From Antedon mediterranea (taxonomy: Eukaryota; Animalia; Echinodermata), in assembly GCF_964355755.1 (NCBI RefSeq), contig NC_092677.1, forward strand, positions 24,539,175 through 24,603,174: a stretch of DNA of 64,000 nt, given 5' to 3'. The notes beneath the pieces were generated by a model that was not told the origin of the DNA, ran no database searches, and saw only the letters and a program-made list of their open reading frames with translations. Positions 2,095 to 40,900 of the stretch are shown piece after piece. The position numbers and the translations under genes were made by a program. Every line of letters starts with the position of its first letter. The first letter of the stretch is position 1.

Positions 2095-2128
2095 TTCGAA
2101 CACTTGGCAAGATTGTCAACGCACAGAG

Positions 2129-9927: not shown

Positions 9928-10007
9928 CCGGTTTAAAACGACGCTTAAACTAATGCGATTATCTTTGTGTTTTTGCTACTAACGCCGAAAGCTGACATTT
10001 CTAAAAG

Positions 10008-11224: not shown

Positions 11225-11759
11225 ATGGATGCTAGATTTAGAGATTTTCTTCAAGAATTCAGTGATGCCTATCCCGGGGATGAGGTACGGGAATTGAGAT
11301 TTCTTCTGCAGGATAACCTATCGATTAGTGTATTATCTAAGAAACACAACTTGGGAATGGATTTATTTACACAACTTGAGCATAAAGGCCTCATTACATA
11401 CAATGATGTTAACATTATGTTAGAAATGGCAGAATTGACAGAAAATACTGCTGCAAAAGCCAGGGTAATGAGATACAAACAAGACGTTGATGAAAATTAT
11501 GATGGTTTCGGTCCGTATCGGGCAAGTTTGAAGGAAAGGCGTAAACAACTTTATAAAGCTATGTGTAGTATAACAGAAAATAAGGGGGGTGATTTTCACA
11601 AATTGATTGCGTTCTACAGAGTGGGTCCATACGGATTTACAAATAAATGGGATTTAGTATTTTATCTGGAGAGAGAACTCAAATTAGATATACAGGATGA
11701 AGATAGTGTTACGAAATTTGCCAATCAGTTGAATGAATGTGCAAAAAGGAAATTACTGG
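11225..11759 (+). CDS. Gene 1 exon: tandem death-effector-domain-like region (type A)
   Basis: FRDFLQEFSD...ELRFLL...DLFTQLEHKGLITYNDVNIMLEM fits the DED pattern; second unit WDLVFYLERE; acceptor CTTACAG at 11217, donor GTACGT at 11760. Confidence 0.8.
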
Positions 11760-14700
11760 GTACGTATTCAAACAATTGGTAACATTATTCCAACGTTTAA
11801 CGTTGACCACGTTTTTAGGTTTTAGAGATCTTTAGTGGCTTTGGTCTGTAATTAGAATCCCTCTAACTATAAAAACCGATACTTGGATTCGTCTTTACAA
11901 TTTTTAGTCGCGTGCACTCTACACCTCACTATGTCGGTCGGTCGGTCGGTCGGTAAACACTAACTTGTACATGGCCTTGTCTTGATATCAGTTTCATCTA
12001 GGTAAGTCAATTTTTCACAGTATATTCCTTATGACCAGGAATCGATGTGGTTATGTTTTCACGGTGCGCAATCAAAAATTACGCGGTCTACGCATGATTT
12101 AACGAAATCACGTTTGTAATCATATCTTCACAAGCATGAATCACAATTAAATAAAATTTGGTAGTTTTAAATTTCAGGGCATAAATCATCATATGGCAAT
12201 ACAATTACGTACGTAGCGCATAACGCATGAGTACGCGCGCTTAAAATTTTCAAAATTGTAAAAATATAAATATGAACTCTTTTTGCCCGATTTCTGTTTT
12301 ACAACCTTTCTTTAATAATATCATCATAATATTTGATTCACTTTTCAACTCGAAATTACGTTATACGAGCACGTCAACCATGACAGGCTACGCACGAGTA
12401 AATTAAAAAAAATATAAATGTTTTTAAACATTTTCTACATTATTAACATGTTCAGCAATTTCGGTCGGTTGGTCAGTCAGTTGGTCGGTAAACACTAACT
12501 TGAGCACGCGACTGCAGCCATCTGTATGGTCCTGTTGATATTATTCGATTGCATTGTGGATTTAAAGGCGGCACGAAGAATGGAGCTTTAAATAGTTCAA
12601 ATTAATTGAATACCTAAACAATTGATCATTAGTAGTAGTAAATACAATTGTCTGTTTAATCCATAATAAAATATGAAATTAAATTTGGTTGTATTATTAA
12701 AATTAAAAACAAAGGTCATGTTCTCTATCTTTTCTTGTCACATGCAAGTGACGCATGCACTTGTGATTATTGTTAAAACGTAGTTTTTTTAGTGACATAG
12801 TGTCTTTAAAAAATATATAAATAAAATTTACAATTATTAAAAACATTTACTTATGACCTACATACAGTATATATACAGACATGCTGAATATTGCGGATTT
12901 CATATATTATTACAATTGTCTAAAAACACATAATCAATGTTTACATTTAAACTTATACAGCATATTTCACGCTAATATATAATACAATTGTAAATCGTAG
13001 GGAGAGAGATCTCCAGCACATATTTATTTTAATAGGTCAATAGGTCAAATATCTTGTCTATTTTTCCATTTCTGATCAGTAGTATAAAAGTTATACGAAT
13101 ACTTATTATTTATAATTTCATTTTTAAACAGACCCCAAATATTTGCAGATTCTCTTTTTTCTGTCCTTTCCAGTTCTTTATATATTTTATATAGAGGATT
13201 TATATATACAACAAGTAAAAACTGAAATCCTAATGTTCTTTTACTTGCTTAGATACAGGTGAACAACAAGTTGATGTAGTTAAAAACGTAGACATTGAAT
13301 TACCAACAACAGCAATAACAAAAACAGGTATGTAAACCAGTTTAGCTGATTGATTTTTAGTAACATGATCAAACAATTTTTGATATTATTCGATTGCATT
13401 GTGGATTTAAAGGCGGCACGAGGAATGGAGCTTTAAAAAGTTCAAATTAATTGAATACCTAAACAATTGATCATTAGTAGTAGTAAATACATTTGTCTGT
13501 TTAATCCATAATAAAATATGAAATTAAATTTGGTTGTTACTATTTTGTTTGTCTTTTATGAGCTCGTCCCACTTTTATTTCAGTCTGCTGTACAAATTAT
13601 TGAAATAGGCCTATATACAAGTTCTCTAGGCCCTATATAAGGCATAGAATATGTATGTATATTCTCTTGTATAATATTAAAATTAAAAACAAAGGTCATG
13701 TTCTCCATCTTTTCTTGTCACATGCAAGTGACGCGTGCATGTGATTATTGTTAAAACGTGTTTTTTTAGTGACATAGTATCTTTAAAAAATAGATAAATA
13801 AAATTTACAATTATTAAAAACATTTACTTATTACCTACATGCAGTATATACAGACATGCTGAATATTGCGGATTTCATATAGTACTACAATTGTCTAAAA
13901 ACATAATCAATGATTACATTTAATTGGCACTTTATTGGCCGCGAGAACTGTGACAGAGCCATGATTTGAACCCAGAACCCAGGCTTGTTAAGCAAGTAAA
14001 TCCGACACCAAAGGATCCACAGATCAGAAACTTAAATATTTTGCTCTGTATTTCTTTTTTATACGTATGTTTTTGTGTCTTGTATTTTATAATCATTTCC
14101 TATAACAGTCAGACTTCATCTTTTTTTAAATCAATAATATTGTTATACTATACAGTACATCAAATGCAGTACAGTACACGGTTTGTGATGTTGTTAAGAC
14201 ATCAATGTTAACATTATGTTTCTTTATAGTACTGGTTGTTGCTGTTGTCATCGCTTTCATCGCTGTTGTCATCACTTTCATTGCTGCTAGGCCTATAGGA
14301 GGTGATGATTTATCTTTTTTTTTTATGGTTAGGTTGAGGGTTAGGTTATGGTCTATCAATACTAGGTGATACACGTGAAACACATATGATGCTATAATTC
14401 AAATGACACTGGAGAAATTTAGATACAGTATCAAGAATCAGTTGCACGTCACGAGTAAAATCCATCTGTCATGATTAGGTTAGTCATATGGCATATGACA
14501 CAGGCATCACATGTGATACATATATGACATTATTACAGAATTGTATAAAGTGATATACATGGACAAATTATACATAATGTATTAAGTACTGACATTTGGT
14601 AGGGAGAACGGTATGAGGGAAATAGTGAACCTCCAGGAAACCACTGTCAGGAGGCCAATGGGTTTTGATTAAATGTAATGTTTATTTTGTCGTAGGCCTA

Positions 14701-17700
14701 TAATCATTCGTTTATTTAAATGATTTTCTAATTTGTTTGAGCAGTAATTATTTTGTATTTTATTTGTCTTTTAACTTAAATGTAACTGTTTATTTTGACA
14801 TTTTATAACAAAATTATTATTTTTAAATATTAATTGTGTTTTGCCTACTATACTAAGTACTGTATTTTTTTATTTTATTAATCTTTTAAATGTTAATTGA
14901 ATTATAGGTCGACCAAATGCGCCTACAGTCACACTGTTGGAACAAAACCTCACTTCCATCACACTACGCATAGAAGACCCTGAATACACCGGTGATCTTG
15001 ACCTAATTTTCTACAATGTCAGCTTTAAATATGAAAGTAGGGGAAAGGATGTCGTTGAATTTAATATGTTTGATTACAGTAAGTCTTCATCAATTAAGTA
15101 AAATAAAAACAAACTATTGATTGGCATTGATATCGTAACCAAGGGCTGCACAGAATTTGTTTTTTATTTCTTTTTTTTTTTATATTATTCCACCAGAGGA
15201 TAAAAATGAAGAAGATTTTCAAAATTACACAATCAAAGGACTGTTAAAAGCGAAACCATACAAAATCAGAGTAGCTGGCAAGAATGAATATATGTTAGGA
15301 GACCAAAGCGAAGAATTATACGCTAGAACACTAACAGAAGGTAGGTATCGTTATTTCATGAAGGATACATAACTTAAGATTTCAGTACAACAATCCATTA
15401 GACTTAGGTACCATCAAAAGGTTGGTACTGTGGGAAAAAAAAGACTTTCTAAATACAAAAAAAGTTATCTGTTGCAGTTAAATGCACATGATGGTAAATA
15501 TTACATAGTTGGAAACAAATCTGTATTGCCACCTGGCTGAAAATGAAATGCGACAAAGGCTGTACAGTAAGATCAACCAAACTCTGTAAACCAAGGATTG
15601 GTCCAATCCGCCATGTAAAAACCCAACGAAACTGAGCAAACATTAATGCAATGAAAATTGTGTGTAAATTTAATAACTTATTTAAACATGCAGTAAAACA
15701 CTTAATTTAATACTTATACAGTACTGTATAATAGGCAAATATAATAGTAGAAAAACAAATGAAATGACAAATAAATAATCAATAATATGATATTGTATTA
15801 ATAATTCTAATAAATATTGTGAATTGTGAATTAATAATAATTGTGATATAAGAGTTTAGTAATTAATTTTAATTCTAATTGTCAAATTCATTAAAAAATA
15901 TATGGAAATATTAGAATAAATTGTCAAAATAGTTAGGGTTGGGAAGGGCATGGTTTGGAAGAGGTCAGTAAACCATGCACATTCTGAGTCACTTGTGAAT
16001 TCAACAAAAATAATAATTCTTCACCAACCATAATTATATTTTATAATAGATTTCAAATATTAAATTCCTTTTGAAACTTTACGCACTTTGACCTTTTGTA
16101 ATTGATCACATTCTACAAGTGAATAATTATATTTTTCAATTTTGGATAATCCAACATGTTTAGATTCAATATAATAACTAGGATAATGATAAATCTCATC
16201 TCTATTATTTTGAAACATATAATTTGCATAATAAATACCAATGTAATGTCTAATGCGAATATTTTTTAGCATCTTCAAGGAAAGTCTTTAAACAGTGATT
16301 GGGTTCACTTTTGACAATCCTGGCTTTTTGTTTAATTTTGTATTTTTATGTATTCTGTTGTAATTGTAATGAGCCGATATTGAATAAATCAAATCAAATC
16401 AAATCTGGGAGATAATTTTCATAGATATATTACAAAGTATTGGACCAAGGATGGACTCTTGTGGAACATAACAATGGGAAATGAATTTTCATCAACATTG
16501 TTATTGACCAAAGAACATGCCTATTGAACATTTATTAAACATATGCATACAATAAACAATATTCAATTCAATGGGTACGTAGATACTTACGTATAAAGTA
16601 TCGGTATGTGACAAAAACAATCAATTGAAAAATGTTTTGTTAATTTACTAATGTAGGCCTAATATTGTATGTATTTGTTGTTTTATAATAATACAAAAAT
16701 CTTCACCAACCATATATTAATTACAAAATCCTATTTATACGATTGTGACATTATAATTAGATAATGAGATATGGAGATTTAAGCCTTTGGACAAATCAAA
16801 GAAATTTCAGATTGTATTTATTTAATTATTTGCAATCATAAGCATGTTTACAATAGGTTGATATATAGCAAGGTTGTAGTTACTGTAAAATGATAGTATT
16901 TCTAATGCAGAGAATAATGGATAACAATTATTTCTGTTTTCAGATGAAATTATCCGAAACTTTCTAACAGAAGAACAGAAAAGGAAATTCCAAGATCCAA
17001 ACATAAATCCGCCGACGTGGAACGCATATTTTTTTAATTACAATATTTCACAGATGTTTACTGATCCAATATTAACTTCAACAATGTTGAAGGAGCGCAA
17101 CTACCCGAATCTAAACATCTCAAAGAACCCATCAGTAAAAGAACTCTTCAATGTTATCAACTCAATGGACTCGTGTAGAGTATTGATGACTGGAGATGGA
17201 GGAATCGGTAAAACAACTTTACTTCAGTATATATCTTACAACTGGGCAACGGATTCAAATTCTACATTTGCCGGTAAAATATTATTTTGTATAAATTTAA
17301 GGGACATCAATAAAAGTGAAACAATCACAGATAAAATTGTTGAGCAAGTTTCACTAAAAATGCTTCATAAAACTACCGGTCTTCCTGAAAATAAAACAAT
17401 TATAAAAAGGTTCATAGAAAAAAACGACAGGGAATTAATAGTATTGTTAGATGGATTAGATGAGTTAGAATATGGTGTCGTAGGAGCAGACAAGTTATTA
17501 GAGGGTAACGAACTGAGAGAAAGTAAGGTTATTATTACATCACGACCAGGTTTTTTATTAGACAAATTTAAACATTACGATTTAGATGTAACAGTAGAAG
17601 GGTTTGCTAAAAAAAATATAAAACAATACGTTCTAAAATATTTTACCAACAACCATACACGTGGTCAGTTATTAATTGAAAAATTAAAACTTGATTCGAT

Positions 17701-20700
17701 GTTTAAAAGTGATTGGGAACTCTTGCAATCCCCTTTTTTGTTACTACAAATGTGTACCATATGGAAACACGAAGAAAACATATCCACAGATGTTCATCAA
17801 TTTTTTAAAGAAATGTTGCTTTCTGTTTTAAATCAGTATATTAACAGAAGTGGTACTTGGAAAGCGATAAAAACATTGGATCACATTCCATCGAACTTTA
17901 ACCATTCCATTCTATTATTAGGAAATATTAGTTATATCAATTTACAGACAAATTTACTTCATTTTACAAAAACTGATTTAACACAGCTACAAGAAAATGA
18001 AGATATAGTTGACTTATCACTTAAATTAGGTTTTGTTTACCAAGATAAACCTACTGTTGAAAATTCTTTTTTCGAGACTTACCGATGTCCACATAAGTTA
18101 CTGGCAGAGGCACTAGCTGGGTTTTATTTGTCTCACAAAATTCAATTTGAGACTTTAGATTTTAAAGAAAGTGAAGAAATAAGAACTAACACGTATCTAC
18201 ATATGACTAGAGTGTTCACAGTTAGTTTTCTAGGTTCCAATGCTGACAAACTCATAAAACACTGGGTGGTAGACCATGCTTCTAATTATTACTCAATTTC
18301 GAAATATTTCCAATATGTAAATCAAGAACACGAAGAAAAGGTATTAGAATCACTTGATGAGCACATAAATGAATCGAAAGAAATAACGTTACAAGTCGAA
18401 CGCTTAACGCGTTCCTTTACAACGTTTTATAATAAAAAGTTACACTTCATACATTATTTGAAATTGTTACATAAAGAATTAACATCAAGTAGTGGTTACT
18501 CACTGGTAGACAAAAGAATTATGAAATTTATAAATGAATCAACTAAAGAATCATCTGAAGATATTTGCAGGCTTGTAGCACACGTCTCAATAATAACAAC
18601 ACAACATATGAATGGAAGAATTGACTTATATTTACTGTATCTATTTAATAAATGGGGTGATACAGCTATTAAGATTCTCTCAAATGAATGGAGAAGATGT
18701 CATTTAAATGAAAACATACAGGAATTGTATTTTCCTCACCCCAATCCCACTTTTACTAGTTCGAATGGCACACATTTAGGTCGTTTTCTTCAAATTGTTC
18801 CCAACCTTCGATTTGTCGACATGAGCCACGGTGGTTCTATATATAATGGTAAGCTTATTAACGAAATGTTAACCGAATGTAAAAACAGTACAGTGTTTTC
18901 AAAATTAACGGAGCTTGATCTCAGTCACAATGATTTAAGAGATATAAATGGAACATTATTAGGTCACAGAATAAATAATTCTAACCATTTGAAAAGTATT
19001 GAATTAAGCTCTTGTAAATTACATGGGACACATATAAATAGTATGTTAAATGAAATAAATGATCGGAAGTTAAACAATATTACCATTAAATTAGAATACA
19101 ATGACCTTTCAGATATTGATGGAGATTCACTCCGAAAGCTGATAGATGTACACTTTCATAGTGAACATTTACATTGGAAGGATCGTTATAATCTATCAGC
19201 CAAAAACTTACAAGCTCTTCTGATTTCAGCTCAGAAGTACCGATTTTAAAAAATTCGTTTTTTTGGATAATGTAGACCTATCATCAATAAATGGAAGTAC
19301 ATTAGCTAACATTTTTATTATATTTCCCAATATAAAACATCTTTCTATGAAGAAATGTACTTTAGTAGGTAGCACTATTTCTGATATGCTAAATACACAA
19401 ATATCTAGAAGCAAGCATGTGAAGGAAAATGTTGCAAATTATTTAGAATCTAAAAAAATTGTCATTGATTTAGACAAAAATGACCTTTCAGATATTGATG
19501 CAGATTCACTCGGAAAGATGATAGAAGTAGAATTTTATATTAGAAGACATGTTGAATTGTTTCATTTACGTTGGAAAGATTATTATAATCTGTCAGCCAA
19601 CAATTTACAGGATCTTCTGATTTCACCACAGAAGAACAGATTTTTAAGAGTCCATAGTGTTAATTTGGGTAATGTAGACCTATCATTAATTAATGGAAGT
19701 ACACTAGCCAACATTTTTGTTATATTTCCAAATATAAAACATCTTTCTATGAAGAAATGTAATTTAGTAGGTAGCACCATTTCTGATATGCTAAATACAC
19801 AAATATCTAGTAGTACGCATGAAATTAGTATGTTGAATGTTGCAAAGTTTCTAGAATCTAAACAAATTTCTATTGAATTAGTCGAAAATGACCTTTCAGA
19901 TATTCATACAGATTCACTCGGGAAGTTGATAGTATTATTGAAACATGAATATCATTATAATGATTATTATGATGGTGATTATCGTAATAAAAAATGTAAT
20001 CGTGGTGGTGTTTTGAAGTTACTCTGTTGGAAAAATTATAATTTATCAGCCAAGCATTTACAATCTCTTCTAATTTCACCGCAGAAGTACACTTTTTTAA
20101 CATTCGATATTGTTGATTTATATTATGTAGACCTATCCTCAATTAATGGAAGTTCACTAGCTAACATTTTTATTATATTTCCAAATATAAAAAGTCTTTT
20201 CATAAATAATTGCAATTTAGTAGGCAGCACTATTTCTGATATGCTAAATACAGAAATATCTAGTAGTACGCATGTAAATAGTAAGTTGAAGGAAACTGTT
20301 GTAAAGTATCTAGAATCTAAAGAAATTGAAATTGGATTAACAGGAAATAACCTTTCAGATATTGATGTAGATTTACTCGGGGAGTTGATAGTGTTGCATC
20401 AAAGAGTTTATCTTGATGATTTATTTTGGAACAATTTTAGTTTATCAGCCAAACACTTACAAGTTCTTTTAATTTCACCTATGAAATACAGATTTTCTAT
20501 ATTGCAAACTGTTGATTTGGAATTTGTAGACTTATCATCAATTAATGGAAGTATACTAGCTAACATTTTTATTATATTTCCTAATATGAAGCATCTTTCT
20601 ATGAAAAGTTGTAATTTAGTAGGCAGCACTATTTCTGATATGCTAAATACACAAATATCTAGTAGTACGCATGTAAATATGTTGAAGGAAACTGTTGCAA

Positions 20701-21542
20701 ATTATCTAGAGTCCAAAGAAATTACCATTAAATTAAGCAGAAATGACCTTTCAGATATTGATGTAGATTCACTCAGGAAGCTGATAGAAGGCGCACTAAA
20801 ACCACCTAAATTAGGTTTAGAACCAATAGTGGATAGTTACACTTTCTCTAAAAGTTTCAGTCTAATTTGGAGTGAGTATAATCTATCAGCCAAACACTTA
20901 CAAGATCTCCTGACCTCACCTTTGAAATACAGGTTTAATGAATGGCGTTCCATTAATTTGGATTTCGTAGACTTATTATCAAGTAATGGAAATACACTAG
21001 CTAACATTTTTGATGTATTTCCAGATTTAACCCATATTTATATGAATAATTGCAGTATAGTAGGCACCACTATTACTGATATGATAAATGAAATGAATAT
21101 TGAATTGAAAGAGAATTCAATATCACTAATTAACAATAACATTTCTAATATTGATGGCGAATCACTACTTAAATTATTGTATGTTATAAGAAACGATGAA
21201 TACAGATGCTCAGAAACATTAGAGTGGAGGAATTATGGTTTAACAGGTGAAAATCTTAAAGATATATTACAACGACCTAATGATGTTATATTGAAGTGGA
21301 AATATGTCGACCTGACGGATATAGATCTATCTTCAATTAGTGGCTCTACGCTAGCCAACATATTTAAATTATTTCCAAATTTGACTTACATAAGACTGAA
21401 AATATCAGACAATATACAGCGAGATATGTTGAAGGAATGCGTTGAACTCAGTTTTCCATTAAAAAATATCACAATTGATGTTTCAATTTCCTCTGGACAG
21501 TTCTGCCTTCAACGAGAGATAAAAGAAAAAAGGGACGTTTAA
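11225..21542 (+). CDS. NLR-like gene 1: tandem DED - linker - TM - FN3 - NACHT - LRR. Exons 11225-11759, 13253-13327, 14230-14301, 14908-15078, 15197-15340, 16944-21542; frameshift near 19247-19262
   Basis: Each exon has a pyrimidine tract-AG acceptor and a GT donor; all introns are phase 1 and join in one open frame into the NACHT ORF. Confidence 0.8.
11901..12536 (-). mobile_element. Non-autonomous Helentron/DINE-1-like (HINE) element
   Basis: (GGTC)n microsatellite, AGTCGCGT terminal motif and T-rich ends; homologous in opposite orientation to 61200-62050 and to a short copy at 26952-27052. Confidence 0.6.
12537..13923. repeat. Intronic direct duplication (12537-12950 vs 13382-13923) flanking the linker exon
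   Basis: Near-identical blocks starting GATATTATTCGATTGCATTGTGG; the first copy lacks about 150 bp. Confidence 0.85.
13253..13327 (+). CDS. Gene 1 linker mini-exon (DTGEQQVDVVKNVDIELPTTAITKT)
   Basis: TTAG acceptor, CAG|GTATGT donor, 75 bp, phase 1-1; homologous exons at 30678 and 56524. Confidence 0.75.
14230..14301 (+). CDS. Gene 1 transmembrane exon (VLVVAVVIAFIAVVITFIAARPIG)
   Basis: TTTCTTTATAG acceptor, 72 bp, phase 1-1, 20 uncharged mostly hydrophobic residues; donor GTGATG is weak but lies where the gene 2 paralogue has GTAAGT. Confidence 0.75.
14908..15340 (+). CDS. Gene 1 fibronectin type III domain on two exons (14908-15078, 15197-15340)
   Basis: PNAPTV...TSITLRIEDPEYTG...FYNVSF plus YTIKGLLKAKPYKIRVAGKNEYMLGDQS; donors GTAAGT and GTAGGT; sequons NLT, NVS, NYT. 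Confidence 0.85.
16944..19249 (+). CDS. Gene 1 NACHT NTPase plus first LRRs
   Basis: TTTTCAG acceptor at 16943 in frame with ORF 17054; Walker A GDGGIGKT, Walker B VLLDGLDE, sensor-1 ITSRP, WHD-like PHKLLAEALAG. Confidence 0.93.
19263..21542 (+). CDS. Gene 1 LRR super-repeat region, continuing after the frameshift
   Basis: Repeating ~130-aa units VDLSSINGSxLANIFxIFPNxKxLxMxxCxLVG...NDLSDIDxDSLGKLI...WxxYNLSAKxLQ. Confidence 0.85.
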   Translation: MDNVDLSSINGSTLANIFIIFPNIKHLSMKKCTLVGSTISDMLNTQISRSKHVKENVANYLESKKIVIDLDKNDLSDIDADSLGKMIEVEFYIRRHVELFHLRWKDYYNLSANNLQDLLISPQKNRFLRVHSVNLGNVDLSLINGSTLANIFVIFPNIKHLSMKKCNLVGSTISDMLNTQISSSTHEISMLNVAKFLESKQISIELVENDLSDIHTDSLGKLIVLLKHEYHYNDYYDGDYRNKKCNRGGVLKLLCWKNYNLSAKHLQSLLISPQKYTFLTFDIVDLYYVDLSSINGSSLANIFIIFPNIKSLFINNCNLVGSTISDMLNTEISSSTHVNSKLKETVVKYLESKEIEIGLTGNNLSDIDVDLLGELIVLHQRVYLDDLFWNNFSLSAKHLQVLLISPMKYRFSILQTVDLEFVDLSSINGSILANIFIIFPNMKHLSMKSCNLVGSTISDMLNTQISSSTHVNMLKETVANYLESKEITIKLSRNDLSDIDVDSLRKLIEGALKPPKLGLEPIVDSYTFSKSFSLIWSEYNLSAKHLQDLLTSPLKYRFNEWRSINLDFVDLLSSNGNTLANIFDVFPDLTHIYMNNCSIVGTTITDMINEMNIELKENSISLINNNISNIDGESLLKLLYVIRNDEYRCSETLEWRNYGLTGENLKDILQRPNDVILKWKYVDLTDIDLSSISGSTLANIFKLFPNLTYIRLKISDNIQRDMLKECVELSFPLKNITIDVSISSGQFCLQREIKEKRDV

Positions 21543-28973: not shown

Positions 28974-31900
28974 ATGGCAAACAGCACAGGTAGGAAACAA
29001 ATTAATATACTACAAGCCTAAAACGAAGTAAATTTACCGACTTCATATTTGCAGGGCAACAATAGCTGGACAAGGCTGATTGTATTTTATTGGTCAGATA
29101 TTTTGCCCTATCTTACGTATTATACTGTGTACTTAGTACATTTACTCATTCTCATTGGATTTTTTTTTCAAGTGTTCTCAATGTAATGAATAAACACAGT
29201 AGAGTGAAACATCTGACCAGTAGTAGTTCCTTAACTCTTTATCGCAAAACTACTTACATATCATCAACAGTATTATGTTTATAAATAACGCTTTAGTAAA
29301 AACTAATGGTGATGAAGGTAGAATGATGGAGTTATGGTGATTTAATCTATTTTTTAGATCTCCTTTGTGGTGTAAGCCGGTACCACTTTTATTCGTTCGC
29401 CATGTATCATAAATACATATTTATAGATGTTCGTTTATATTTCTCTCCATATTACCCTCTTTTTTTCATTATTTTCTTCAATTTACTCATACTAGTCATA
29501 CAGTGGTATATATAAAATGACTATATAAAATGACTATATAAAATGACTATATAAAATGACTATATAAAATGACTATATAAAATGACTATATAAAATGACT
29601 ATATAAAATGACTATATAAAATGACTATATAAAATGACTATATAAAATGACTATATAAAATGACTATATAAAATGACTATATAAAATGACTATATAAAAT
29701 GACTCAAGAACACCAAGAATAAACAGAAACTATTTTTATATATGATAAATATGTATGTATAACCAGCTCGATTAGCATTGTCGATTTTATTTTTTTTATA
29801 CTTTTGTTGTGTAACATTACATTGTGTAACACTAAATATATTCAATATTTTACAACTTTTATAATTTACAGCATTATCAAAAGAGGAATGTAGCCTATTG
29901 AAAAGTTCTGTGGCAAACTGGTTTGACCAACGTTGTTCAATCAGTATGATCAAAGTTTTGTACGAAGAGTTGGTGACTAATAAAACTGACTTACATAAAT
30001 CTACTACAATGATGGAATTGATCAACTTGGTAAATACTTTTAATGGATTTAGTCAAAATGATCCAAGTATTTTACTTGCGACAATAAATGTTACTGGGCA
30101 ACACGGCATATGGAACAAAATAGAAAAATTAAAATTACCTGAGCTACGTCAAACAAGAACAGTATCAATGTTCAGTGAATTTAGACAGAAGGTAATGAGG
30201 CTCGGATTAAAAATGACAGATAGTGAAGTACAAAGGATAAGTCATTTGTATGAAGAAACAAAGTTTAGAAAGTATGACGATAGCTGGAGTTTGATTATTG
30301 ATCTTGAACGTAACGCCCACTTATCTAATGAAAACATGACGAGGTTCATTAGAACGTTAAGCGAGAATAGTCTCGGTCATTTGATATACACTATAGATGG
30401 CGGTATGTATTACATTTTATCATGATATTGTTTATTTATACTATAAAATTAAATTTACTAACCAGTATATCTAATTAAGAAATTCACATTACTGAATTAC
30501 GAATTTGTACAGATTTGCACATTTGAGGATGCCATATTAGCACAAACGTGGTTGTTTGCACATTTAAGTGCAAAATGTTTGCACAAAAAATAGTGTTTTT
30601 TGCACAAATGTGACTTTCTGCACATTTCACGGCTAAACAAGCCTCCTAATGTTTCTTTTACATTTTAATATATACAGTTGTAATCGAAGACTTTGGATTA
30701 CCAAGAACAGCAAAAAGAGGTACCGGTATGTAAACCAATTTAGAAAAATCCTTTTTTTTAACCTTATCAAACAACCTTTGATATTATCGATTGCATTGTG
30801 GATTTAAAGGCGGCATGAGGAATAGGGTTGTAGATTTTCAAATTAATTGAACACTTATAAAAGCACAATTTGTTCATTACAAGCATCTAGTCATCAATTT
30901 CAGGATGAGAAACAAGCCCATGCCTTCTAAACCTGAAGTATAATTTGAGCCAAGGTATAAGTGGCACTTCATTGGCTGTTTTTTTTATTTTTTTTATTTA
31001 ATCGGTATAAAAATACTCAAAATACAACTCATAGTTGAAATGAAGAGCTTACATATGAAAATGATAATTCACATAAACAAAGTTAAACGAAGAAAAAACA
31101 CATTAAAGCCTATGAAACAGTAATAATTAATGTATAATTCGTTAAACTTAAAATTACTATAAAAAATGCACAAATTCTTAAATATATACAATTTTAAAAA
31201 ATAGAGACTAATATTAATAATCACATTATTTTTATACACCAATAAAATATATGTAAAATTCATTAAACTAAAAGTACAATAAAAATTGCACAAAATTCAA
31301 ATTCAAAGGATGATATTAATAATTACAAATTCTTATATTATATTTACAAATTTAAAAAATTGAATCTTATAAATCACATTTTTATAGTCCCATAAGTAGT
31401 TACAAAAAAAAATTTAAAGCATAAAACAACCACTTGACAAAGAGACAATAGAACATACTCTTCGAAATGTCTTTAAAGGTTAATTGTCCACACGGAACTG
31501 TGACAGCCGTGATTTGAAGTCTATCAAACACCAAGGGAGAAACTTACAGTATATCTTTGGTTCTGATGCGTTGTTGTCTTTTGTTTTATAATCATTTCCT
31601 TTAATTCATTCCTAATTATAGTCGGTTTTATTTTTGTTTAAATCAACAATATTGTTATACAGTACATCAAATGCAGTACAGTACTCGGTTTGTGATGTTG
31701 TTAAGACAACAATGTTATTCGTGTGTTTCTTTAAAACATGTGTGGTTCTCCTGTTCTTTTGGTGTCAGAATTTACATATTTATTTTCCGGTCTAACACAA
31801 CAAATATCTCTATCAGTGTCCCTGAAGTAACAAATATCAATAATTTATATTTAATCTACAAAAACGCGCCCTCGGGATTTGTGCAGGGACATTGTGACTA

Positions 31901-34900
31901 TCCCATACGAAACCCTTATTTACCTCCGCCAAGGAGGTATATGTAATCGGTAGCGTGTGTTTGTTACTTGGCCAAATTGAAAATTGGCCAAGTATGTTGA
32001 TCTGTTTGGTTTGTGTGTTTGTTTGTTACTTGGCCAAATTGAAAATTGGCCAAGTATGTTGATCTGTTTGGTTTGTGTGTTTGTTTTGTTTGTTTGTTTG
32101 TTTGTCATCACTCTAGCGCTCACAGTTTTGATTCGAATGACTCCACATTTCTACCATACATGTCACCTGCTGCAAGGACGACACCACCCAATTTTGGTTA
32201 AAATCCGGACCACGGTTCCAATTCTGGACTAAAATTAAAACTAAAATTGCATTTTCTCGAGAACTAGGCCTACATGTCCAAAAAACTTCAGTTTTGTACA
32301 AGAGGCAAGAGTTATAATTTGTGATTTGTAATTTTAAAACTTAATTAGATTTAATGTACAGGTTTTTTAATGCGAATAGTTTAAAAACCCTATTTCTTTT
32401 CAAATTCACCCGTTTGATTTTCGCGTTGCTGTTCTATTGTTAGCCAACTGAAGCTATTGTTAATTGAAAGGCTTGTTACATAACCATTACACCAAACTCG
32501 CATACACATGCTTGTAATGAAATTAGCCTAAATCACAAACAGCATTAAGACACACACAATATATATATATATATTTTTTTTACCGGAGAAATCTTATGTA
32601 GGAGAATTTTACAGTAGGCTGAGGTATGCCCTCTCGGAGTGGCTTTCTAGTTTCATAATTTAAAACTCTTAACATCTTTGATTGTTGATTTGCAAATCAA
32701 CAATCTAATAAACATGACCATAAGATTTTCTAAATGTAATGTCTTGCCTGAAAAACATATATCTTTATCCAGACAAAATTAAATTTTCTATAATGGCCCT
32801 AATTTATGGAATTCTTTTAACAATACAATAAAATAAATAATAAATAAAACGATTTCTTCTTTTAAACGTAATATTTTAAAAAAAAATGAATATTTGGTAG
32901 TGTAATTTTTGTGTTTATTTATATAATAATAATATAATAGTGGGTGTACCTGAATGGTTCTCGGAAACATGGCCAATGCCTCTGAAAAACGGCTGACACC
33001 TATGCATATGACTATGAGTTTGCATGTTTCAATATACTAAATTCACAATGTATAGGCCTAGATATGAAATGTATCAGTACATTAATATTAATTATGTCTC
33101 ATGTCAGTTAAAAATGTAAAGAAAACTTGACAGCAATTGACCAGACCCATCATAAGCATTTTTTAAATAAGAAAATTGATGTGTTACATAAAACGTATAT
33201 ACGTATTTAAATGTGCACTGGAGGAAAACGTCAATTGAGGCTACACCGACACTAAAGTGCTTGACAGCCGGATGGGGGTGCTTAGCTAAATGCTAATTAT
33301 TAAAATATGCACATTTTCCAAGTTAGCGTCACAATCATGTATTTTCAATACAAGTTGGATATCATATTTTATGGCCTTTCATTTGATATCAAACATTTGA
33401 ATTAGTTAACATTATATAAATAAACACAAAAAATACACTAAATATTAATTGTTTATAAAAAAATAATCAAATTATTCACATTTTTTTTTTTAATTACAAA
33501 TGTTCAATACAAATTTGGTATCAGTTGATAGCATATTCTATGGGCGTTCATTTGATACCATACAGGCTGTCTATTGACATCTTAAAGAATAATTTAATTT
33601 TTTTCGGGGGGGGGGGGAAGGGAGTTCAAAGGTCAGTAATAGCATTTCCGGTCACTTTTTCGCAAAAGTTGTGTTAGACCAAAAAATAAATATGTGTATT
33701 CTGAACAAGTGGTTGTCAAGATATAAGAACACGTTGTTCTCCTCAAATCAGTCCTAAATTGAAATGCATACAAATCTTACTCAGGTCCTAGACTACCTAG
33801 ACTACTTAAAGTACTGGCTGCTGTCATCGCTTTCATCGTTGTTGTCATTGCTGTTGTCATTGCTGCTGTCAACGCTGCTAGTCCTATCAAGGGTAAGTAT
33901 ATTTATGGTTTTTATGGTTAGGTTGAGGGTTAGGTTATGGTCGATGATACTAGGTAATACAAGTGAAACACAGGCGATGCTATATTCCTATACGATGCTG
34001 GAGAAATCTAGATACATCACCAAGACTCGGGTGCACATGAGCAAAATCCCTGTATTGTGTTTAGGTTAGGCATATTGCATATGATACAGGCATCACATGT
34101 GATACATATCTGAAGTTGTGTTAATTACATAATTCCTCTGTGATATTCATGAACAAATTATACTATAGTGTATTAAGTACTGACATTTGGTAGGAAGAAA
34201 GGTATGAGGGAAATAGTGAAACCTCCAAGAAACCTACTATCTGGAGGTCAATAGGTTTTGATTAAAGTTAATGTTTATTTTGTCTTTGTTATTTTATTTA
34301 TCCTTTTAAACCTATTGTCTGGAAGTCAATAGGTTTTTGGTTAAATTTAACTGTAAATCATTATTTTGTTATTATAAATTATTTTTATTTTGCCTATTAT
34401 AAGTACAAGTATTTTTGTCTGTTATGCATCAACACTAAACGCGGATGATGATGTTAAAGTTGTATTCTATGACGATCTAGTACGAGTATTGAATGATATT
34501 CACAAGGAAGAGAAACTGATTATTTTAGGAGATTTCAATTCAAGAGTAAATGAATCTGATTCGGAATTGTTGTTTACAATGAATTAATAAGTTGTAATGG
34601 TGGGCATTGTCATCATAATTGAAAAGTGAGATATTGAGATCAAAGGCTTTGCAAGAAAATGCAAATCATATTATAGTAATGATAATGAGAATAAGAAGAA
34701 GAATGGATAACAAATATTTTTCTTTTCAGATGAAACTATCCGAAACTTTCTAACAGCTCAACAAAAAAAGAAATTCCAAAACACAAAACTGTCAACGTTG
34801 GACCCAAGTGTAAAATACAATATTTCACAGATGTTTACTGATCCAATATTAACGCCAAAAATATTAAATACGTATAAATACACGGATCTAAAAATCGGAA

Positions 34901-37900
34901 GTCACCTATCATTAGAAGAACTATTAGACAAAATGATGTCTATGGACTCGAGTAAAGTATGCATAACTGGAAAAAGAGGAATTGGTAAGACAACTTTACT
35001 TCAGTATCTGTCTTACAACTGGGCAACAAATCCGAATGCTGCATTTGCTGGTAAAATATTATTTTTTATAAACGTGAGAGACATCAAAGCAGAAAATACC
35101 ATTACAGATACGATTGTACAAACAGTTCCAATGAATACATTTAATGTAAAAACCGGTCTTCCTAAAGATAACTCAATTTTAAAAACGTTTATGGAGAAAC
35201 GGAGCATGGAATTAATTGTGCTGTTAGATGGAATAGATGAGTCAGAAGATGATTTCAAAGAACTAGTAAATATATTGGATGGAAACGAACTGACAGAAAG
35301 CACAGTTATTATTACATTACAAACAGGTTTTGAAAAAGATTTACTTGATCATTGCGATTTAGCTGTACAAGTAGAAGGGTTTTCGAAAATGAATATAAAG
35401 ACATTTATTCAAAAACATTTCAGATTCGTCAAAACAACTGCACTTGGTGATTCATTGATTGAAGAATTAAAACTTAATTCGAAGTCTGAAATAGATTGGG
35501 GTGGTGATCACAAAGCAATATTTGAACTCTTGAAATCCCCTTCGTTGTTACTTAAAACGTGTACCATATGGGAACGCGAACAAAAAGTGCCAGATTCAAA
35601 CCAGATTTTAGACCATCAATTGACAGAAGGTAAGTCTATTTACTATTATTGTTATGATTGTGAATTGAAATTATGAAATAAATTAATGGACAGAGAAACA
35701 AATATTTCTCCAGAAATATTGATGCAGGTAATTGGAATGGAATGAGAAATGGAAACAAAAAATCAAACAAATTTGATATTTATGTGCTGTCCTGACAGAG
35801 AGCTTGAAAACTTTATATTCATTTCGTCATGGAAGCGCAACCCTTCCAATAACATTTGCAATGTTGAAGGCTATTCTTACATATATTAAGAAGGAATTCT
35901 TACGATTTATCTTGTGCACCAACAGAGATATTTCTGTAGAGTTACACTATAAGTAGAACATAGATACAACTCAAAAATAAAGTTGAACTTAAATGTTGAA
36001 GATTTAGTAAAATTTAAATTTAAATAACAATTGTTTCTGTCAGAATATTTATTTATTCTTTCTCGAGATTTGATTTGAATTTATTTGAAAAACAATTATA
36101 AAAATACATACAAAGTGATAAATTACTGACATTAAAAATAAATACATTTATAAAACATTTTCCCAGGACAGCCCAAACAAAGCTACTTTTAAGGCTTTAC
36201 GTTTGATCATCCACTTATTTATTTTTAAATAAATTACATTAACTAATCAATCTAAATTAACAAAAAGTAATATATTTTATTTTTGACAACATTGCATTCA
36301 ATGATTTAATGACTATAAAACATTACAATTAGAAAATTTTAAAAAATTGTCATTGTTCGTAGAGGAAACAATAAGCCACAATGAGTCGTTCATAATATAA
36401 GAATAAAATTAAATGTCTCAAAAAAATAAATAAGTAAATAAATAAAACAATGACATGATAACGTTTAACCTATTACTTGAGATAATGTAGACACTATAAA
36501 GTGGGTCATTCCATGTCAAATCAACCAGTGGTAGTACGGGTCACGCCATGGATTTGGCCAATTTTTTTTGTTAGGGTACCTCAATATATATAATGAACAC
36601 ATGCAAAGTTTTAGCGCTTAACTCCAAGTCGTTTTTAGCCTCGTTGATATATAACCTTTTATCATTCACCTCATGCTATTATTTGTACCATAACACTCAT
36701 AAACATTCATTATTTGTATATTATTATATTGTATTGTATTATATTGTATTACAATATAAAGCGTGAAGTACTGACAAGATTAAATATGTTCATAAAATAT
36801 CGGAGTATATTGTGGGGAATAGTATATAAAAGTACGTCGAGAGAACACTTGTTTAAAATCGGGGAAACCCCGACAGCTGATAGTTGGACAGCCAGTCGAC
36901 AAATCGTGTCAAATTTCTAATTTAGTTCAAAATTGCTTAATTTTTGGGTGTTGGAAAAACACAATATTTGTAAATTTAGTTGATTATCGGAAAAAAAGTT
37001 GTTAGTGAAATAAATTCATAAATAGTTTTAATATATTGTCATGTAAAATTAAATGTATTTGAACAAAACGATAATCTGTAATTTAACCGCAAAATCAACC
37101 AATGTCTTTTTTCCGAAATTGTACCCTAGAAAATCATTAAAATAAAATATTTAGAAAAATTGAACAGTCCTGAATTTAAAATCCCTGTTAGAAAAATTAA
37201 TAATCTACAGAATACGATATTAAGATACAAAATTCGGTGGTTGGGATGCAGCTCCGACTATTCAAACTAAAGGTACCACTATTTGTTCCATCGAAAACTA
37301 GCGAAACCGCCATTTTGTAAACACATCGTCATCGTGTTTATGAATTTATTTATAGCGAAAGATATACGCGATGTTTATAATTGTCCGCGTATAAGAATTC
37401 ATATAAATAAATACATTCCAATACAACGTATATTATTACTTGTTTATTTATCACAGTATACATTTTAGTTGAGGAATATTTATCATAACTATTATAATAG
37501 CTTTTATACGAGTCCGAGGCCTAGCCCTATTAGCGAGCGATTGTTCCAGGGGCGGAAAGTCACTTAGTGACGTTGTGATCGGGCGCGTCGGGCCTAGCTA
37601 ATATTAATAATATGACCTGAAATAAGTGGCTAACAAGAACTGTTATATACTTGCTTACAATTGTTTTGTTATTGATGAACAAACAAGCAATTAGATTGAA
37701 TAACAAATTATTTATTCATTTTTTTTGGGTAAAAACATGTAGGCCTACAAACTAGTACTGTATAATATAAATTAATAGTTACAGTATTAATAAAATATAA
37801 AATAGGCCTAACATACAATAAATATTCAATTTTTAAGGTCTACCACATGACAATAACATAATTTACAGAGTATAGTGTAGTAGGTTTGCATTCAACATAA

Positions 37901-40900
37901 ATATTTGTATTGTAATTCATCTAAATCCTCTGCAACATACATATATATTTGTAATTCAACATTTTGTTTTAAATAATTAAATTATAGTTTGGGTATGACA
38001 ATGTCGGTAGGTACCAGTGTCATCTTTTTATCCACTTCACTCTCAGTTTGAAGTCACAAAGACAAAGAACTCTGCATCATCAACGATTCCTGAAAGTGTC
38101 AGAAAAAAATAATAAATATTATTTAAAAAAAATGTTAATGTCTGGTTGTATATATAATTATATAATATTATACATAAAAGTAAGGCAAATGGAAGCTGTA
38201 TTTTATTAATTAAATTACAGTATACTAGTATTATTTATATAATCTAGGCCTACTATAGTAGTAGCCTAGCTAGGCATCTATTGAGCCTAATAAATCAAAT
38301 AATAAATGAAAAATAAAATAATAATATTAATACTGATTGAAAAAAAGTATTTTTTGGGGGGATCAGATCACCAGGCTAGGCCGGCCAGGACCAATGATAC
38401 TCGTAATCAGTACAACTTAACGACTATCGGATCAGCATCAACACAGTACAACACACGTCTCGCTATCGCCTATACTGACACACGTGTCTCGCGTTGCCGA
38501 AACCACGCTCACAGCTAGAAAATGTACCTACCTTTCGAGGCCTGAGAATACACCAACAAATTTTGAACAGGATAGAAATATATCATACTCGATTAAACTA
38601 ATATTATTCTTGATAAAACAATTGATTACAATTTTTTTAATTTGTTGGGATGCACCTCCGACTATTCAGAAAATGGACAACAAAACAGTAGTCAAATCGT
38701 ACCACATTTATAAATTTCACGAGTCCCGACTTCAGTCTTTGAAGGAAACCGATTGGTTATTCAATTATACTTATTAGGAAATGCTTTTACCATAATAGGT
38801 AATGTTGGGCGGTTCTTAAATATTCATGAGAGCTTAAAATAAAACAGTACTTATTTGCTAGGCGACGAAAAATCGTGGTTTCAGTTTTCAACGATAGGTG
38901 GCGCTTCAAAATCGTCAATGCGGAAGTAAGTCGATTTTACACGATTTAACGGTCAAAACGCGAAGTGGCTTTCCCACTGCTGAGGTGTTGAGTAAGCTGG
39001 AAGGTCTGTATACTGCGCGCTATTTGTGTCCCGTTAGGACCCTGTGGCCGTATTCACCAATCTCACTTAGGCTAAGGGAAATACTTACCCTTAAGTGAAA
39101 CCCTTAATAAGGGAAATTCTTATGATCTAAGGGAAATATCTCACTTAAGTATGATTAGTGAATACGGCCACTGGGATACTTCTGCCCCTGTTGCAAGCCG
39201 TCTAAAAAGTTTTCCTTAGACCAAAACGGCCTACTGTGTCATGGAAGTTTCACAAGATGTTTAAACTAAATAATGTATTTACTAATTAAGATGGTTGAAT
39301 AAACGCCCAACACCCCACACATATCGTCATCTCTTCAAGGTATGCCATTCGTTGAGCATTGGACTGCCTCATATGTATTGGGTATTCTATTGGGTTCCGC
39401 TAAATTTAAAGTGTGTATCGGTTTTTTTAAACTTTTCACAATTTCAACAATAACATCATTATATGGCGTGAATGTCTTGGCTGTCGGGTTAAGTTGTTCT
39501 ATGATTTCTAAGAGGAAGAGTAATTAAAAATGGGAAATAAATTTGCATAACATTTAGGCATATTGAGCATTCATTAAACATATATACATTAAACTAAATA
39601 CACTTCAATTTCAATATTATGCTGATGAAATTCGGATTAGGCCCTCCACGGTAGCCAGCAGTGCAGAACCTACCAGATCAGCACACCGGGTCCGGGAGAC
39701 GATCTCCTACTTTGTGTACCAAGTTCTTTAACGTGCACTGTATGTACATGTACTTTACGTCCTATCCGAAGAACGAGGCAATGAGAGAGTAAAGCTTACT
39801 AAAGATACAATACGTATGGAACAGATAGGCTCGAACCCATGCTTATCATCACTCTCAGGTATAGGCCTATACATCACCCCAGAACGCAGCCGGGCTTAAC
39901 GAACGTTGCTTAACATCGGTGATCTGACGAGAACCGATGTTTCAACGCAGTATGGCTGTAAATACTTATTTATAATTATGTGGAAAAACAATCAATTGAA
40001 AACAAAAATCGTTTCCATTTACTAATGTAATATTCTATGTATGTTTTTCTATTGTTGTTTTACAATAATACGACAATTATTCTTTACCAATCACTATTAA
40101 TTAAGAGATTCTGACAGATTGAGATATAGAGATCGAAGGCTTTGGACAAATCAAAGAAAATTTTGCAATAAGCATACTAGGCCAAATGATGTAAGGAAAA
40201 TAATGGTTAACAATTATTTTTCTTTTCAGATGAAATTATCCGAAACTTTTTAACAGCAGAACAGAAAAGGAAATTTAAAGATCCAAACAGGAAACCGCCG
40301 ACGTGGAACACGTATTTTGGACATAAATACAACATTTCACAGATGTTTACTGATCTAATATTGAAACCAGAAATTTTGAAGAAGTATAAATACCTGGATT
40401 TAAAAATCGAAAGTCCTACATCATTAAAAGAACTATTATACTTTATCAGGTCCGTGGAATCATGTAAAGTATGCATGACAGGAGAAGGAGGGGTTGGTAA
40501 GACGACTTTACTTCAGTATATATCTTATAACTGGGCAATTGATTCAGATTCTACGTTTGCCGGTAAAATATTATTTCTTATAAATGTACGAGATATCGAG
40601 GCAGGTAAAACAATTACAGATATGATTGTAGCGCAGGTTAGTATGAGTATTTTTTTTAAACATACTAATCTCCCGACAAATGAACTACTAATAGAAAGGT
40701 TTATACAGAAGTATGACAGGGAGTTAATTGTGTTGTTAGATGGATTAGATGAGTTGGAATATGGTGTCGTAGGGCCAAAACTGATATTAGAAGGTAATGA
40801 ACTGAGGGAAAGCATAGTTATTATGACATCACGACCGGGTTTTACGAAAGACTTACTTATTCATTGCGATTTAGATGTAAAAGTAGAAGGGTTTTCTAAA

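What the first reader, a model, noticed from the sequence alone, without database searches (positions are those of the whole stretch)
11225..21542. Membrane-spanning 'inside-out' NLR: tandem DED | TM | FN3-NACHT-LRR
Seen: mini-exons largely missed by the ORF track splice in frame to place one ~20-aa hydrophobic helix between the N-terminal DEDs and FN3-NACHT-LRR. There is no signal peptide, and a TM exon recurs in all three paralogues. Established: NLRs are cytosolic, with death fold and NACHT in one compartment. A single TM separates them. Basic residues precede the TM in genes 2 and 3 (RTAKR, KTKR), acidic residues or a sequon follow it in gene 3 (NVSDDHE), FN3 has three sequons and most LRR units keep INGS/T. 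Inference: type II topology with cytosolic DEDs and a luminal or extracellular NACHT-LRR, a death-receptor/NLR hybrid whose outside oligomerisation (possibly ATP-gated; Walker A/B intact) clusters DEDs for FADD/caspase-8-like partners. Caveats: gene 1 flank charges are ambiguous, and sequons are common in this Asn-rich sequence. I recall a membrane-bound Ig-NACHT receptor from sea cucumber, so novelty needs a literature check.
Basis: partly seen in the sequence, partly recalled or inferred. Interest (0 to 1): 0.93.

Follow-up and report, generated by a model that had tools for sequence, protein, structure and literature searches.

The report
Feather-star immune sensor, likely inside-out
This feather-star gene encodes an NLR immune sensor with one membrane-spanning helix between its death-signalling domains and its ATP-switch and repeat domains, a build shared by unremarked gene models in two crinoid genera, so the normally cytosolic sensing half is predicted to sit outside the cell or inside a vesicle and would signal across the membrane.

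Summary
Six GT-AG exons (11225-19249) splice in frame to tandem DED, linker, one ~21-residue hydrophobic helix, FN3, NACHT and a few LRRs, with no signal peptide. RefSeq models from Antedon mediterranea (XP_071959453.1, XP_071959549.1) have the same build; Anneissia japonica has TM-NACHT relatives.

Corrections: gene 1 stops at 19247-19249, so its long LRR tail is out of frame (DNA contigs agree). Genes 2 and 3 are damaged or incomplete. The LRR-sequon argument fails.

Type II topology (DEDs inside, NACHT-LRR luminal or outside) is inferred, about 0.7. The slot behind the helix holds extracellular modules: an FN3 59% identical to an NCAM-like ectodomain, or two six-cysteine EGFs. The same DED pair sits before a helix and a MAM ectodomain in another Antedon protein. 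Cysteines are roughly halved behind the helix but not before it. No RNA or topology experiment exists here.

Membrane NLRs are known, and an extracellular NACHT was claimed in 2026 for sea-cucumber AjNLR-new. I found no report of a death fold split from NACHT-LRR by a membrane.

The parts
11225..11759 (+). Gene 1 exon: start codon and tandem DED (178 aa)
   Evidence: Pfam DED E 4.8e-6, below the curated cutoff. AF2 model pLDDT 89.1; best Foldseek rows are caspase-8/cFLIP tandem DEDs, TM 0.72, E 2.4e-3. 79% identical to P0001.
13253..13327 (+). Gene 1 linker mini-exon, 75 nt, phase 1-1
   Evidence: matched in P0001, P0002 and P0104.
14230..14301 (+). Gene 1 transmembrane mini-exon, 72 nt, phase 1-1, ~21 hydrophobic residues
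   Evidence: KD19 3.33; top of 121 candidate mini-exons; same helix in P0001, P0002 and P0104; helix 198-224 in the P0001 model.
14908..15078 (+). Gene 1 FN3, first half
   Evidence: whole FN3 is 59% identical over 104 residues to the first FN3 of the Ig-FN3-TM protein P0119; weak PDB hits to titin and NCAM1 FN3.
15197..15340 (+). Gene 1 FN3, second half
   Evidence: Pfam fn3 E 0.004.
16944..19249 (+). Gene 1 terminal exon: NACHT with Walker A, Walker B, sensor 1 and winged-helix His, helical domains, a few LRRs, then TAA at 19247-19249
   Evidence: (NACHT E 2.7e-18); the P0001 model matches NLRC4/NOD2, E 5.5e-13.
19224..21542 (+). Long LRR-unit frame (772 codons), out of frame with gene 1
   Evidence: DNA contigs span the junction without differences.
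28974..28989 (+). Gene 2 first coding micro-exon (16 nt)
   Evidence: the matching N-terminus is in RefSeq P0104.
29872..30402 (+). Gene 2 tandem DED exon (second DED type)
30678..30725 (+). Gene 2 linker mini-exon (donor after 30719 or 30725)
33812..33892 (+). Gene 2 TM exon; acceptor separated from its pyrimidine tract by a ~2 kb insertion, possible alternative acceptor at 33785
   Evidence: (KD19 3.41).
34730..35629 (+). Gene 2 partial duplicate NACHT exon, phase 1-1, sensor-1 motif degenerate
40230..44086 (+). Gene 2 NACHT-LRR exon ending in a premature TAA; further LRR sequence follows, interrupted by a LINE-like insert (~44810-47960)
53620..53635 (+). Gene 3 first coding micro-exon
54367..54897 (+). 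Gene 3 tandem DED exon, 97% identical in DNA to gene 2's
56524..56577 (+). Gene 3 linker mini-exon
60570..60629 (+). Further linker-like mini-exon, followed by a frameshifted remnant of a gene-1-type DED exon (~60790-60980)
62376..62459 (+). TM mini-exon (KD19 2.23) ending in a sequon and acidic residues
62848..62925 (+). Second, tandem-duplicated TM mini-exon (KD19 2.25); the gene runs off the window after it

Best explanation
Gene 1 encodes a crinoid NLR with one hydrophobic helix between a tandem DED and an FN3-NACHT-LRR block, and it likely inserts as a type II membrane protein with the DEDs in the cytosol and the NACHT-LRR in the ER/vesicle lumen or outside the cell, where ligand-driven clustering would bring the DEDs together on the inner face like a death receptor. 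Shown from sequence: the exon chain, domain order, absence of a signal peptide, intact nucleotide-binding motifs, and the same build in RefSeq models of two crinoid genera. Inferred: (1) the folded DED pair blocks N-terminal translocation, so the helix acts as an N-in signal anchor; (2) the lineage arose from ordinary cytosolic DED-DED-NACHT-LRR NLRs by gain of a phase-1 TM exon, after which extracellular modules (FN3, EGF) were shuffled in behind it; (3) the NACHT still binds nucleotide, probably loaded in the ER lumen, and oligomerises on sensing; (4) the clustered DEDs recruit DED partners, either caspase-8/FADD-like proteins or crinoid DED-kinase and DED-GTPase fusions. Steps 3 and 4 are untested. 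The copy here ends at 1100 aa; its stop lies in the last exon and its RefSeq relatives are 1081-1082 aa, so it may still be a working short-LRR member.
For: Exon model matched by RefSeq P0001/P0002 and by P0104, whose N-terminus also matches the 16-nt micro-exon of genes 2 and 3.

10 of 54 crinoid-type NACHT proteins carry a helix before the Walker A. They form one side of a branch among TM-less relatives (SH-aLRT 79, not starred), and helix sequences differ widely while place and hydrophobicity are kept.

What follows the helix: an FN3 59% identical to the ectodomain FN3 of P0119 (Ig domains, two FN3, TM at 778); in Anneissia P0006, two EGF domains with six cysteines each. P0184 (XP_071963970.1) is kinase-DED-DED|TM|Thr/Pro-rich stalk-MAM, the same DED module on the cytosolic side of a type II-like protein.

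Cysteines in the NACHT core: 5-8 in the 10 TM-bearing proteins against 8-18 in the 29 TM-less DED-NLRs, the largest shift of all 20 residues (log2 -0.93). LRR part 1.86 vs 3.46 per 100; DED part 1.2 vs 0.91, unchanged.

Charge difference favours N-in for 8 of 10 (15-residue flanks). A folded N-terminal domain forces N-in signal anchors (passages of PMC6269167 and PMC2174215). Walker B, sensor 1 and the His motif are kept in 10, 10 and 9 of 10.
Against: Gene 1 itself has the opposite charge bias (+2 in both windows), and with 10-residue flanks only 6 of 10 favour N-in.

Sequons are weak support: 57 seen vs 42.6 expected in TM-bearing cores, not different from TM-less ones in observed/expected (p 0.24). 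The excess is confined to the four gene-1-subclade proteins, and sequon Asn is no better conserved than other Asn (0.54 vs 0.54).

The cysteine shift rests on one or two lineages, so its p-values overstate it; three TM-less or N-incomplete proteins also have only 7-8. Full retention of ATP motifs is equally what a cytosolic NACHT would show. All homologues are predicted models; P0006 lacks a DED in its model and could be chimeric. FN3 domains also occur in the cytosol (titin hits). All three copies in this window carry breaks or are incomplete.
Confidence: 0.6

Rival explanations
1. The TM exon is a cassette that is usually skipped, so the main product is a cytosolic DED-DED-(FN3)-NACHT-LRR NLR and the membrane form is minor or degraded.
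For: All internal exons are phase 1-1, so skipping keeps the frame. Gene 2's TM acceptor is damaged. 29 of 54 relatives have DEDs and no TM. ATP motifs are fully kept.
Against: The helix is included in 8 independent RefSeq NACHT models of two genera, with divergent sequence but constant place. The cysteine loss behind the helix and the EGF pair in P0006 do not fit a mainly cytosolic life.
Confidence: 0.13
2. The protein is type II as proposed but is not an oligomerising death-type receptor: the outside NACHT-LRR works as a microbe-binding, agglutinating or phagocytic ectodomain, as claimed for AjNLR-new, or as a decoy, and the DEDs are a scaffold or are silent.
For: AjNLR-new's NACHT is reported to bind bacteria and PAMPs and drive phagocytosis (passages and section 4 of PMC13133943). 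LRR number varies greatly, and P0104 is modelled as DED-DED|TM|FN3 with no NACHT at all.
Against: Walker B, sensor 1 and His motifs are kept in 10, 10 and 9 of 10 TM-bearing proteins, which a passive binding surface would not need. The DED pair models confidently as a caspase-8-like tandem DED.
Confidence: 0.15
3. The helix anchors the protein with both ends in the cytosol (re-entrant hairpin, or two helices as gene 3's tandem TM exons would allow), giving a membrane-tethered but otherwise ordinary NLR.
For: Gene 3 has two TM exons, both in frame. Gene 1's flank charges do not favour type II. ATP is plentiful in the cytosol (established knowledge).
Against: Gene 1 and its RefSeq matches have one 20-24-residue helix without a central Pro/Gly kink. 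EGF and MAM domains behind such helices need an oxidising compartment (established knowledge). Cysteine loss is one-sided.
Confidence: 0.07
4. The three copies in this window are decaying duplicates, so the architecture is real for the family but this locus makes no working protein.
For: Frameshift in gene 1, premature stop, LINE-like insert and damaged acceptor in gene 2, DED remnant in gene 3.
Against: Gene 1 keeps an unbroken 1100-codon frame, all splice sites and all motifs, at the length of its RefSeq relatives (1081, 1082 aa). Its stop is in the last exon.
Confidence: 0.05

Closest known systems
AjNLR-new of Apostichopus japonicus (PMC13133943, 2026; passages and section 4 read)
   Same: Echinoderm membrane NLR-related protein whose C-terminal NACHT is reported to be extracellular.
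   Different: It has two TMs around an intracellular Ig region; no death fold is described ('death effector' has 0 occurrences in the text). The crinoid protein has one helix, cytosolic tandem DEDs and a full NACHT-LRR. In the section read, its topology rests on TMHMM, membrane co-staining and binding of recombinant domains, not on protease protection or glycan mapping. Relatedness of the two NACHTs was not tested.
AjNLRC4 of Apostichopus japonicus (PMC8699970; passages read)
   Same: Membrane-bound NACHT protein in an echinoderm.
   Different: Ig domains outside and NACHT inside, no LRR or CARD: the opposite topology.
Anthozoan and sponge TM-bearing NLRs (PMC3879445, PMC5094078, PMC12909245; passages read)
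   Same: NACHT-LRR proteins with predicted membrane helices N-terminal of the NACHT.
   Different: 3-5 clustered N-terminal TMs in anthozoans, 1-2 weak ones in sponges; no death fold split from the NACHT by a single helix is described in the passages seen.
Cytosolic DED-NACHT-LRR NLRs (Hydra, amphioxus per PMC13133943 and PMC3879445; 29 TM-less crinoid relatives here)
   Same: Same DED, NACHT and LRR parts and motifs; the TM-bearing proteins nest among the crinoid ones.
   Different: No membrane helix; effector and switch share one compartment.
Death receptors (Fas/TNFR family) with FADD and caspase-8 (recalled, no call)
   Same: Outside clustering would gather death folds on the inner face; the DED pair models like caspase-8/cFLIP tandem DEDs.
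   Different: Those are type I with cysteine-rich ectodomains and a death domain; here a predicted type II protein with an NTPase ectodomain and DEDs.

Membership tests
Animal NLR (NACHT-LRR) | NACHT domain with nucleotide-binding motifs | tested here: met
   Pfam NACHT E 2.7e-18; Walker A, Walker B, sensor 1 and His motif present; NLRC4/NOD2 fold match for P0001.
Animal NLR (NACHT-LRR) | C-terminal LRRs | tested here: met
   Weak Pfam LRR hits before the stop (E 0.03-0.3); clear LRR hits in relative P0065. Most of gene 1's LRR units lie beyond the frameshift.
Animal NLR (NACHT-LRR) | N-terminal death-fold effector | tested here: met
   Tandem DED: Pfam E 4.8e-6 below cutoff; model pLDDT 89.1, TM 0.72 to caspase-8 tandem DED but E 2.4e-3.
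Animal NLR (NACHT-LRR) | Soluble, effector and NACHT in one compartment (no TM between them) | tested here: not met
   Single hydrophobic helix between DED and NACHT in the gene model and in RefSeq relatives.
Type II (signal-anchor) membrane protein | No cleavable signal peptide, one internal hydrophobic helix | tested here: met
   Hydropathy only; no DeepTMHMM or SignalP available.
Type II (signal-anchor) membrane protein | Positive-inside charge bias towards the N-terminal flank | tested here: inconclusive
   8 of 10 (15-residue) or 6 of 10 (10-residue) favour N-in; gene 1 does not.
Type II (signal-anchor) membrane protein | C-terminal part glycosylated and protected from cytosolic protease | not testable with these tools
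   Proxies only: sequons inconclusive; one-sided cysteine loss and extracellular modules supportive.
Sea-cucumber Ig-TM-NACHT receptors (AjNLRC4, AjNLR-new) | Ig domains with TM helices and NACHT, no death fold | tested here: not met
   No Ig hit in gene 1 or P0001-P0006; tandem DED and LRRs present.
Death receptors (TNFR family) | Type I topology, TNFR cysteine-rich ectodomain, cytosolic death domain | tested here: not met
   No such Pfam hits and no signal peptide.
Death receptors (TNFR family) | Clustering recruits FADD/caspase-8 | not tested
   No complex prediction or experiment was run.

The most novel reading that the evidence does not exclude
Crinoids have turned a cytosolic NLR inside out: a whole NACHT-LRR sensing machine was moved across the membrane by gain of one exon, kept its nucleotide switch, and now oligomerises in the lumen or outside the cell (possibly using luminal or released ATP) to nucleate DED filaments in the cytosol. 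That would be a death receptor whose ectodomain is an inflammasome-type ATPase.
Probability: 0.35. Interest if true: 0.9.

Novelty: new variant of a known kind. Interest (0 to 1): 0.72.

Why it matters
NLRs are defined as cytosolic sensors whose switch and effector share a compartment. A family in which one exon puts a membrane between them would show that a NACHT-LRR module can fold and work in the secretory pathway and signal across a bilayer. It gives a cleaner test than the one published claim of an extracellular NACHT (AjNLR-new): native sequons report topology directly, and close TM-less paralogues are built-in controls. It also offers a natural record of how a cytosolic domain adapts to an oxidising compartment, seen here as loss of cysteines only behind the helix.

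Tried and rejected
RNA: no RNA holder listed for window 11200-19200. The four runs laid on 11000-22500 covered introns and showed no exon-exon joint among the joints listed (15 shown, 119 not shown), so exon inclusion is untested here; this is no evidence either way.

No whole genome is held for the window, so gene 3's 3' end and other copies could not be read.

Sequon tests: observed/expected comparison and conservation test did not separate TM-bearing from TM-less proteins. Four sites are nearly specific to the TM group (P0001 positions 370, 486, 675, 699: 4, 4, 5 and 5 of 9 against 0, 0, 0 and 1 of 44), but kinship can explain that. The LRR 'INGS' argument is rejected.

Walker A was an inclusion criterion, so its 10 of 10 is not counted. 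Rows dropped: 4 of 58 (P0013 short core; P0079, P0082, P0102 no Walker A match). P0103-P0207 and P0216-P0218 were not in the cysteine test; the fragments P0103 and P0218 have few cysteines (4 in 313, 7 in 365) without a TM seen.

Frameshift as assembly error: rejected for this sample; run X5 does not cover the site.

A hidden second TM exon in gene 1: none among the candidates. An upstream in-frame signal exon for gene 1 cannot be excluded without RNA, since an AG lies just before the ATG, but P0001/P0002 start at the same place.

ESM Atlas gave no usable hit. A search with P0001 residues 1-340 found only P0001 and P0002. A search for shorter relatives of P0065 gave 4 proteins, 1 of them already known to bear the TM. 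No complex prediction was run.

Full report
SETTING. The window is AT-rich animal DNA (GC about 0.30). The NACHT exon's best hits are RefSeq proteins of the feather stars Antedon mediterranea (66% and 61% identical) and Anneissia japonica, so it is a crinoid close to Antedon. No whole genome is held. The window carries a tandem cluster of three related genes on the + strand.

OBSERVATION. Gene 1 splices as 11225-11759, 13253-13327, 14230-14301, 14908-15078, 15197-15340 and 16944-19249, with GT-AG introns all in phase 1, to an unbroken 1100-aa frame. The order is tandem DED, linker, one hydrophobic helix (KD19 3.33, residues 204-222), FN3, NACHT, helical domains and a few LRRs. The DED exon models at pLDDT 89.1 and its best structural rows are caspase-8/cFLIP tandem DEDs (TM 0.72; E 2.4e-3, none under 0.001). 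The full-length relative P0001 models at pLDDT 65.7 with a long helix at 198-224, a low-confidence beta-sandwich behind it, and an NLRC4/NOD2-like body (E 5.5e-13). The TM exon is the most hydrophobic of 121 candidate symmetric mini-exons in the window. RefSeq models XP_071959453.1 and XP_071959549.1 (P0001, P0002) have the same DED-linker-TM-FN3-NACHT chain. XP_071959548.1 (P0104) joins the gene-2/3 type DED pair to the same TM and FN3 and begins with the residues of the 16-nt micro-exon I predicted for genes 2 and 3. These are predicted models named 'uncharacterized protein'; their RNA support was not visible to me.

CORRECTIONS. Gene 1 ends at TAA 19247-19249. The LRR frame 19224-21542 is out of frame, and contigs of runs X1, X2 and X3 (one sample) span the site with no difference. 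The stop is in the last exon and leaves a protein as long as P0001/P0002 (1081, 1082 aa), so it need not be a dead gene. Gene 2 lacks FN3 exons, has a ~2 kb insertion at its TM acceptor, a partial extra NACHT exon, a stop at 44084-44086 and a LINE-like insert. Gene 3 has two tandem TM exons behind a decayed DED remnant and no NACHT inside the window. The recurrence of the TM is better shown by the RefSeq relatives than by these two copies.

THE FAMILY. A search of cluster representatives with P0001 gave 1486 hits at E <= 0.001, of which 150 were listed. I analysed 58 crinoid-type NACHT proteins, dropped 4, and sorted 54 into 10 with a helix before the Walker A (two window models, six Antedon and two Anneissia models), 29 with DEDs and no helix, and 15 with incomplete N-termini. 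The 10 form one side of a branch but without strong support (SH-aLRT 79; 66/92 for 9 rows), so one origin is allowed, not shown. The helices differ in sequence but keep place and hydrophobicity. P0003, P0064 and P0065 also have a hydrophobic C-terminal segment.

WHICH SIDE IS OUT. Four lines point to DEDs inside and NACHT-LRR out. First, there is no signal peptide, and a folded N-terminal domain forces an N-in signal anchor (passages of PMC6269167 and PMC2174215). Second, the slot behind the helix takes extracellular modules. Gene 1's FN3 is 59% identical over 104 residues to the first FN3 of P0119, an Ig-FN3-TM type I protein of unnamed source; the label NCAM-like is my reading of that layout. 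Anneissia XP_033105221.1 has two six-cysteine EGFs there. Third, Antedon XP_071963970.1 uses the same DED pair as kinase-DED-DED|TM|Thr/Pro-rich stalk-MAM. Fourth, cysteine is the most depleted residue in TM-bearing NACHT cores (5-8 against 8-18; log2 -0.93). It is also lower in their LRRs (1.86 vs 3.46 per 100; 9 vs 26 proteins) but not in their DEDs (1.2 vs 0.91; 6 vs 27 proteins). That loss of free thiols marks a move to an oxidising compartment is my inference.

AGAINST. Gene 1's own flank charges point the wrong way (+2), and the rule holds in 8 of 10 or 6 of 10 proteins depending on the window. Sequons do not discriminate: 57 vs 42.6 expected in TM-bearing cores, 98 vs 99.6 in TM-less cores, p 0.24 on observed/expected. 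The excess is confined to the four gene-1-subclade proteins (12, 7, 11, 7 against 5.6, 3.7, 4.2, 3.3), and sequon Asn is conserved no better than other Asn. LRR sequons are a general feature of these repeats. The cysteine result comes from one or two lineages. All exons are symmetric, so the TM exon could be skipped. No transcript or experiment bears on topology.

MECHANISM. Most likely a type II receptor: SRP-type insertion leaves the DEDs in the cytosol, and FN3 or EGF act as a stalk for a NACHT-LRR that faces the ER/vesicle lumen or the outside (inferred, about 0.7 for topology). Walker B, sensor 1 and the His motif are kept in 10, 10 and 9 of 10, so the switch probably still binds nucleotide. 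Ligand-driven oligomerisation would cluster the DEDs and recruit DED partners (inferred by analogy with NLRC4 rings and the caspase-8 DED filament; untested). Candidate partners exist among the hits: DEDs fused to kinases, a very large GTPase and a Roc domain. Whether it works at the surface or in a vesicle is open.

WHAT IS KNOWN. Membrane-bound NLRs have been reported in anthozoans and sponges (passages of PMC3879445, PMC5094078, PMC12909245). AjNLRC4 has Ig outside and NACHT inside (passages of PMC8699970). AjNLR-new is reported as the first NLR with an extracellular NACHT, with an intracellular Ig region between two TMs (passages and section 4 of PMC13133943). The phrase 'extracellular NACHT' occurs in that one paper only. 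Searches for crinoid NACHT proteins and for DED/TM/FN3/NACHT or type II NLR combinations (listings read, plus passages of PMC2858798 and bioRxiv 10.1101/2024.01.21.574862) showed no description of this family. The library lacks most subscription journals, and I read no supplements; crinoid genome papers or their supplementary domain tables could mention it. Earlier scan notes list TM-NACHT proteins in sharks, a protist and bacteria, none described with this build (unchecked).

VERDICT. A real, unremarked crinoid NLR subfamily with a membrane helix between death fold and NACHT-LRR. Inside-out topology is likely but unproven, and the signalling steps are hypothesis. New variant of a known kind; interest 0.72.

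Noticed in passing
window 1090-8217: LTR retrotransposon-like element: two long + strand ORFs in one frame (2084-3958, 3959-7144) split by a single stop, between 1006-bp direct repeats 99.9% identical. Looks like a recent Pao/BEL-type gag-pol by eye; not scanned against Pfam.
   Followed up: no
window ~44810-47960 (- strand): LINE-like insert with endonuclease- and reverse-transcriptase-like frames (by eye) inside gene 2's LRR region; a similar decayed piece lies at about 9400-9975.
   Followed up: partly
P0184, P0154, P0159, P0185 (Antedon mediterranea RefSeq): A wider crinoid set of DED-DED proteins with one TM behind the DEDs: kinase-DED-DED|TM|stalk-MAM, kinase-DED-DED|TM|small domain, DED-DED|TM|small domain, and a tail-anchored DED-DED.
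   Followed up: partly
P0003, P0064, P0065: TM-bearing NLR models with a second hydrophobic segment at the very C-terminus, so the NACHT-LRR would be tethered at both ends (TM or GPI signal not told apart).
   Followed up: partly
P0069, P0192, P0110, P0118: The same DED module joined to other effectors: OTU-like protease within an NLR, very large GTPase, Roc, RING-NHL.
   Followed up: no
window 34730-35629: Partial NACHT exon with its own phase-1 donor; if spliced in, gene 2 would carry one and a half NACHT domains in frame.
   Followed up: partly
window 25066-30978 vs 49852-56828: Recent segmental duplication (87-98% identical) covering the promoter region and DED exons of genes 2 and 3.
   Followed up: no
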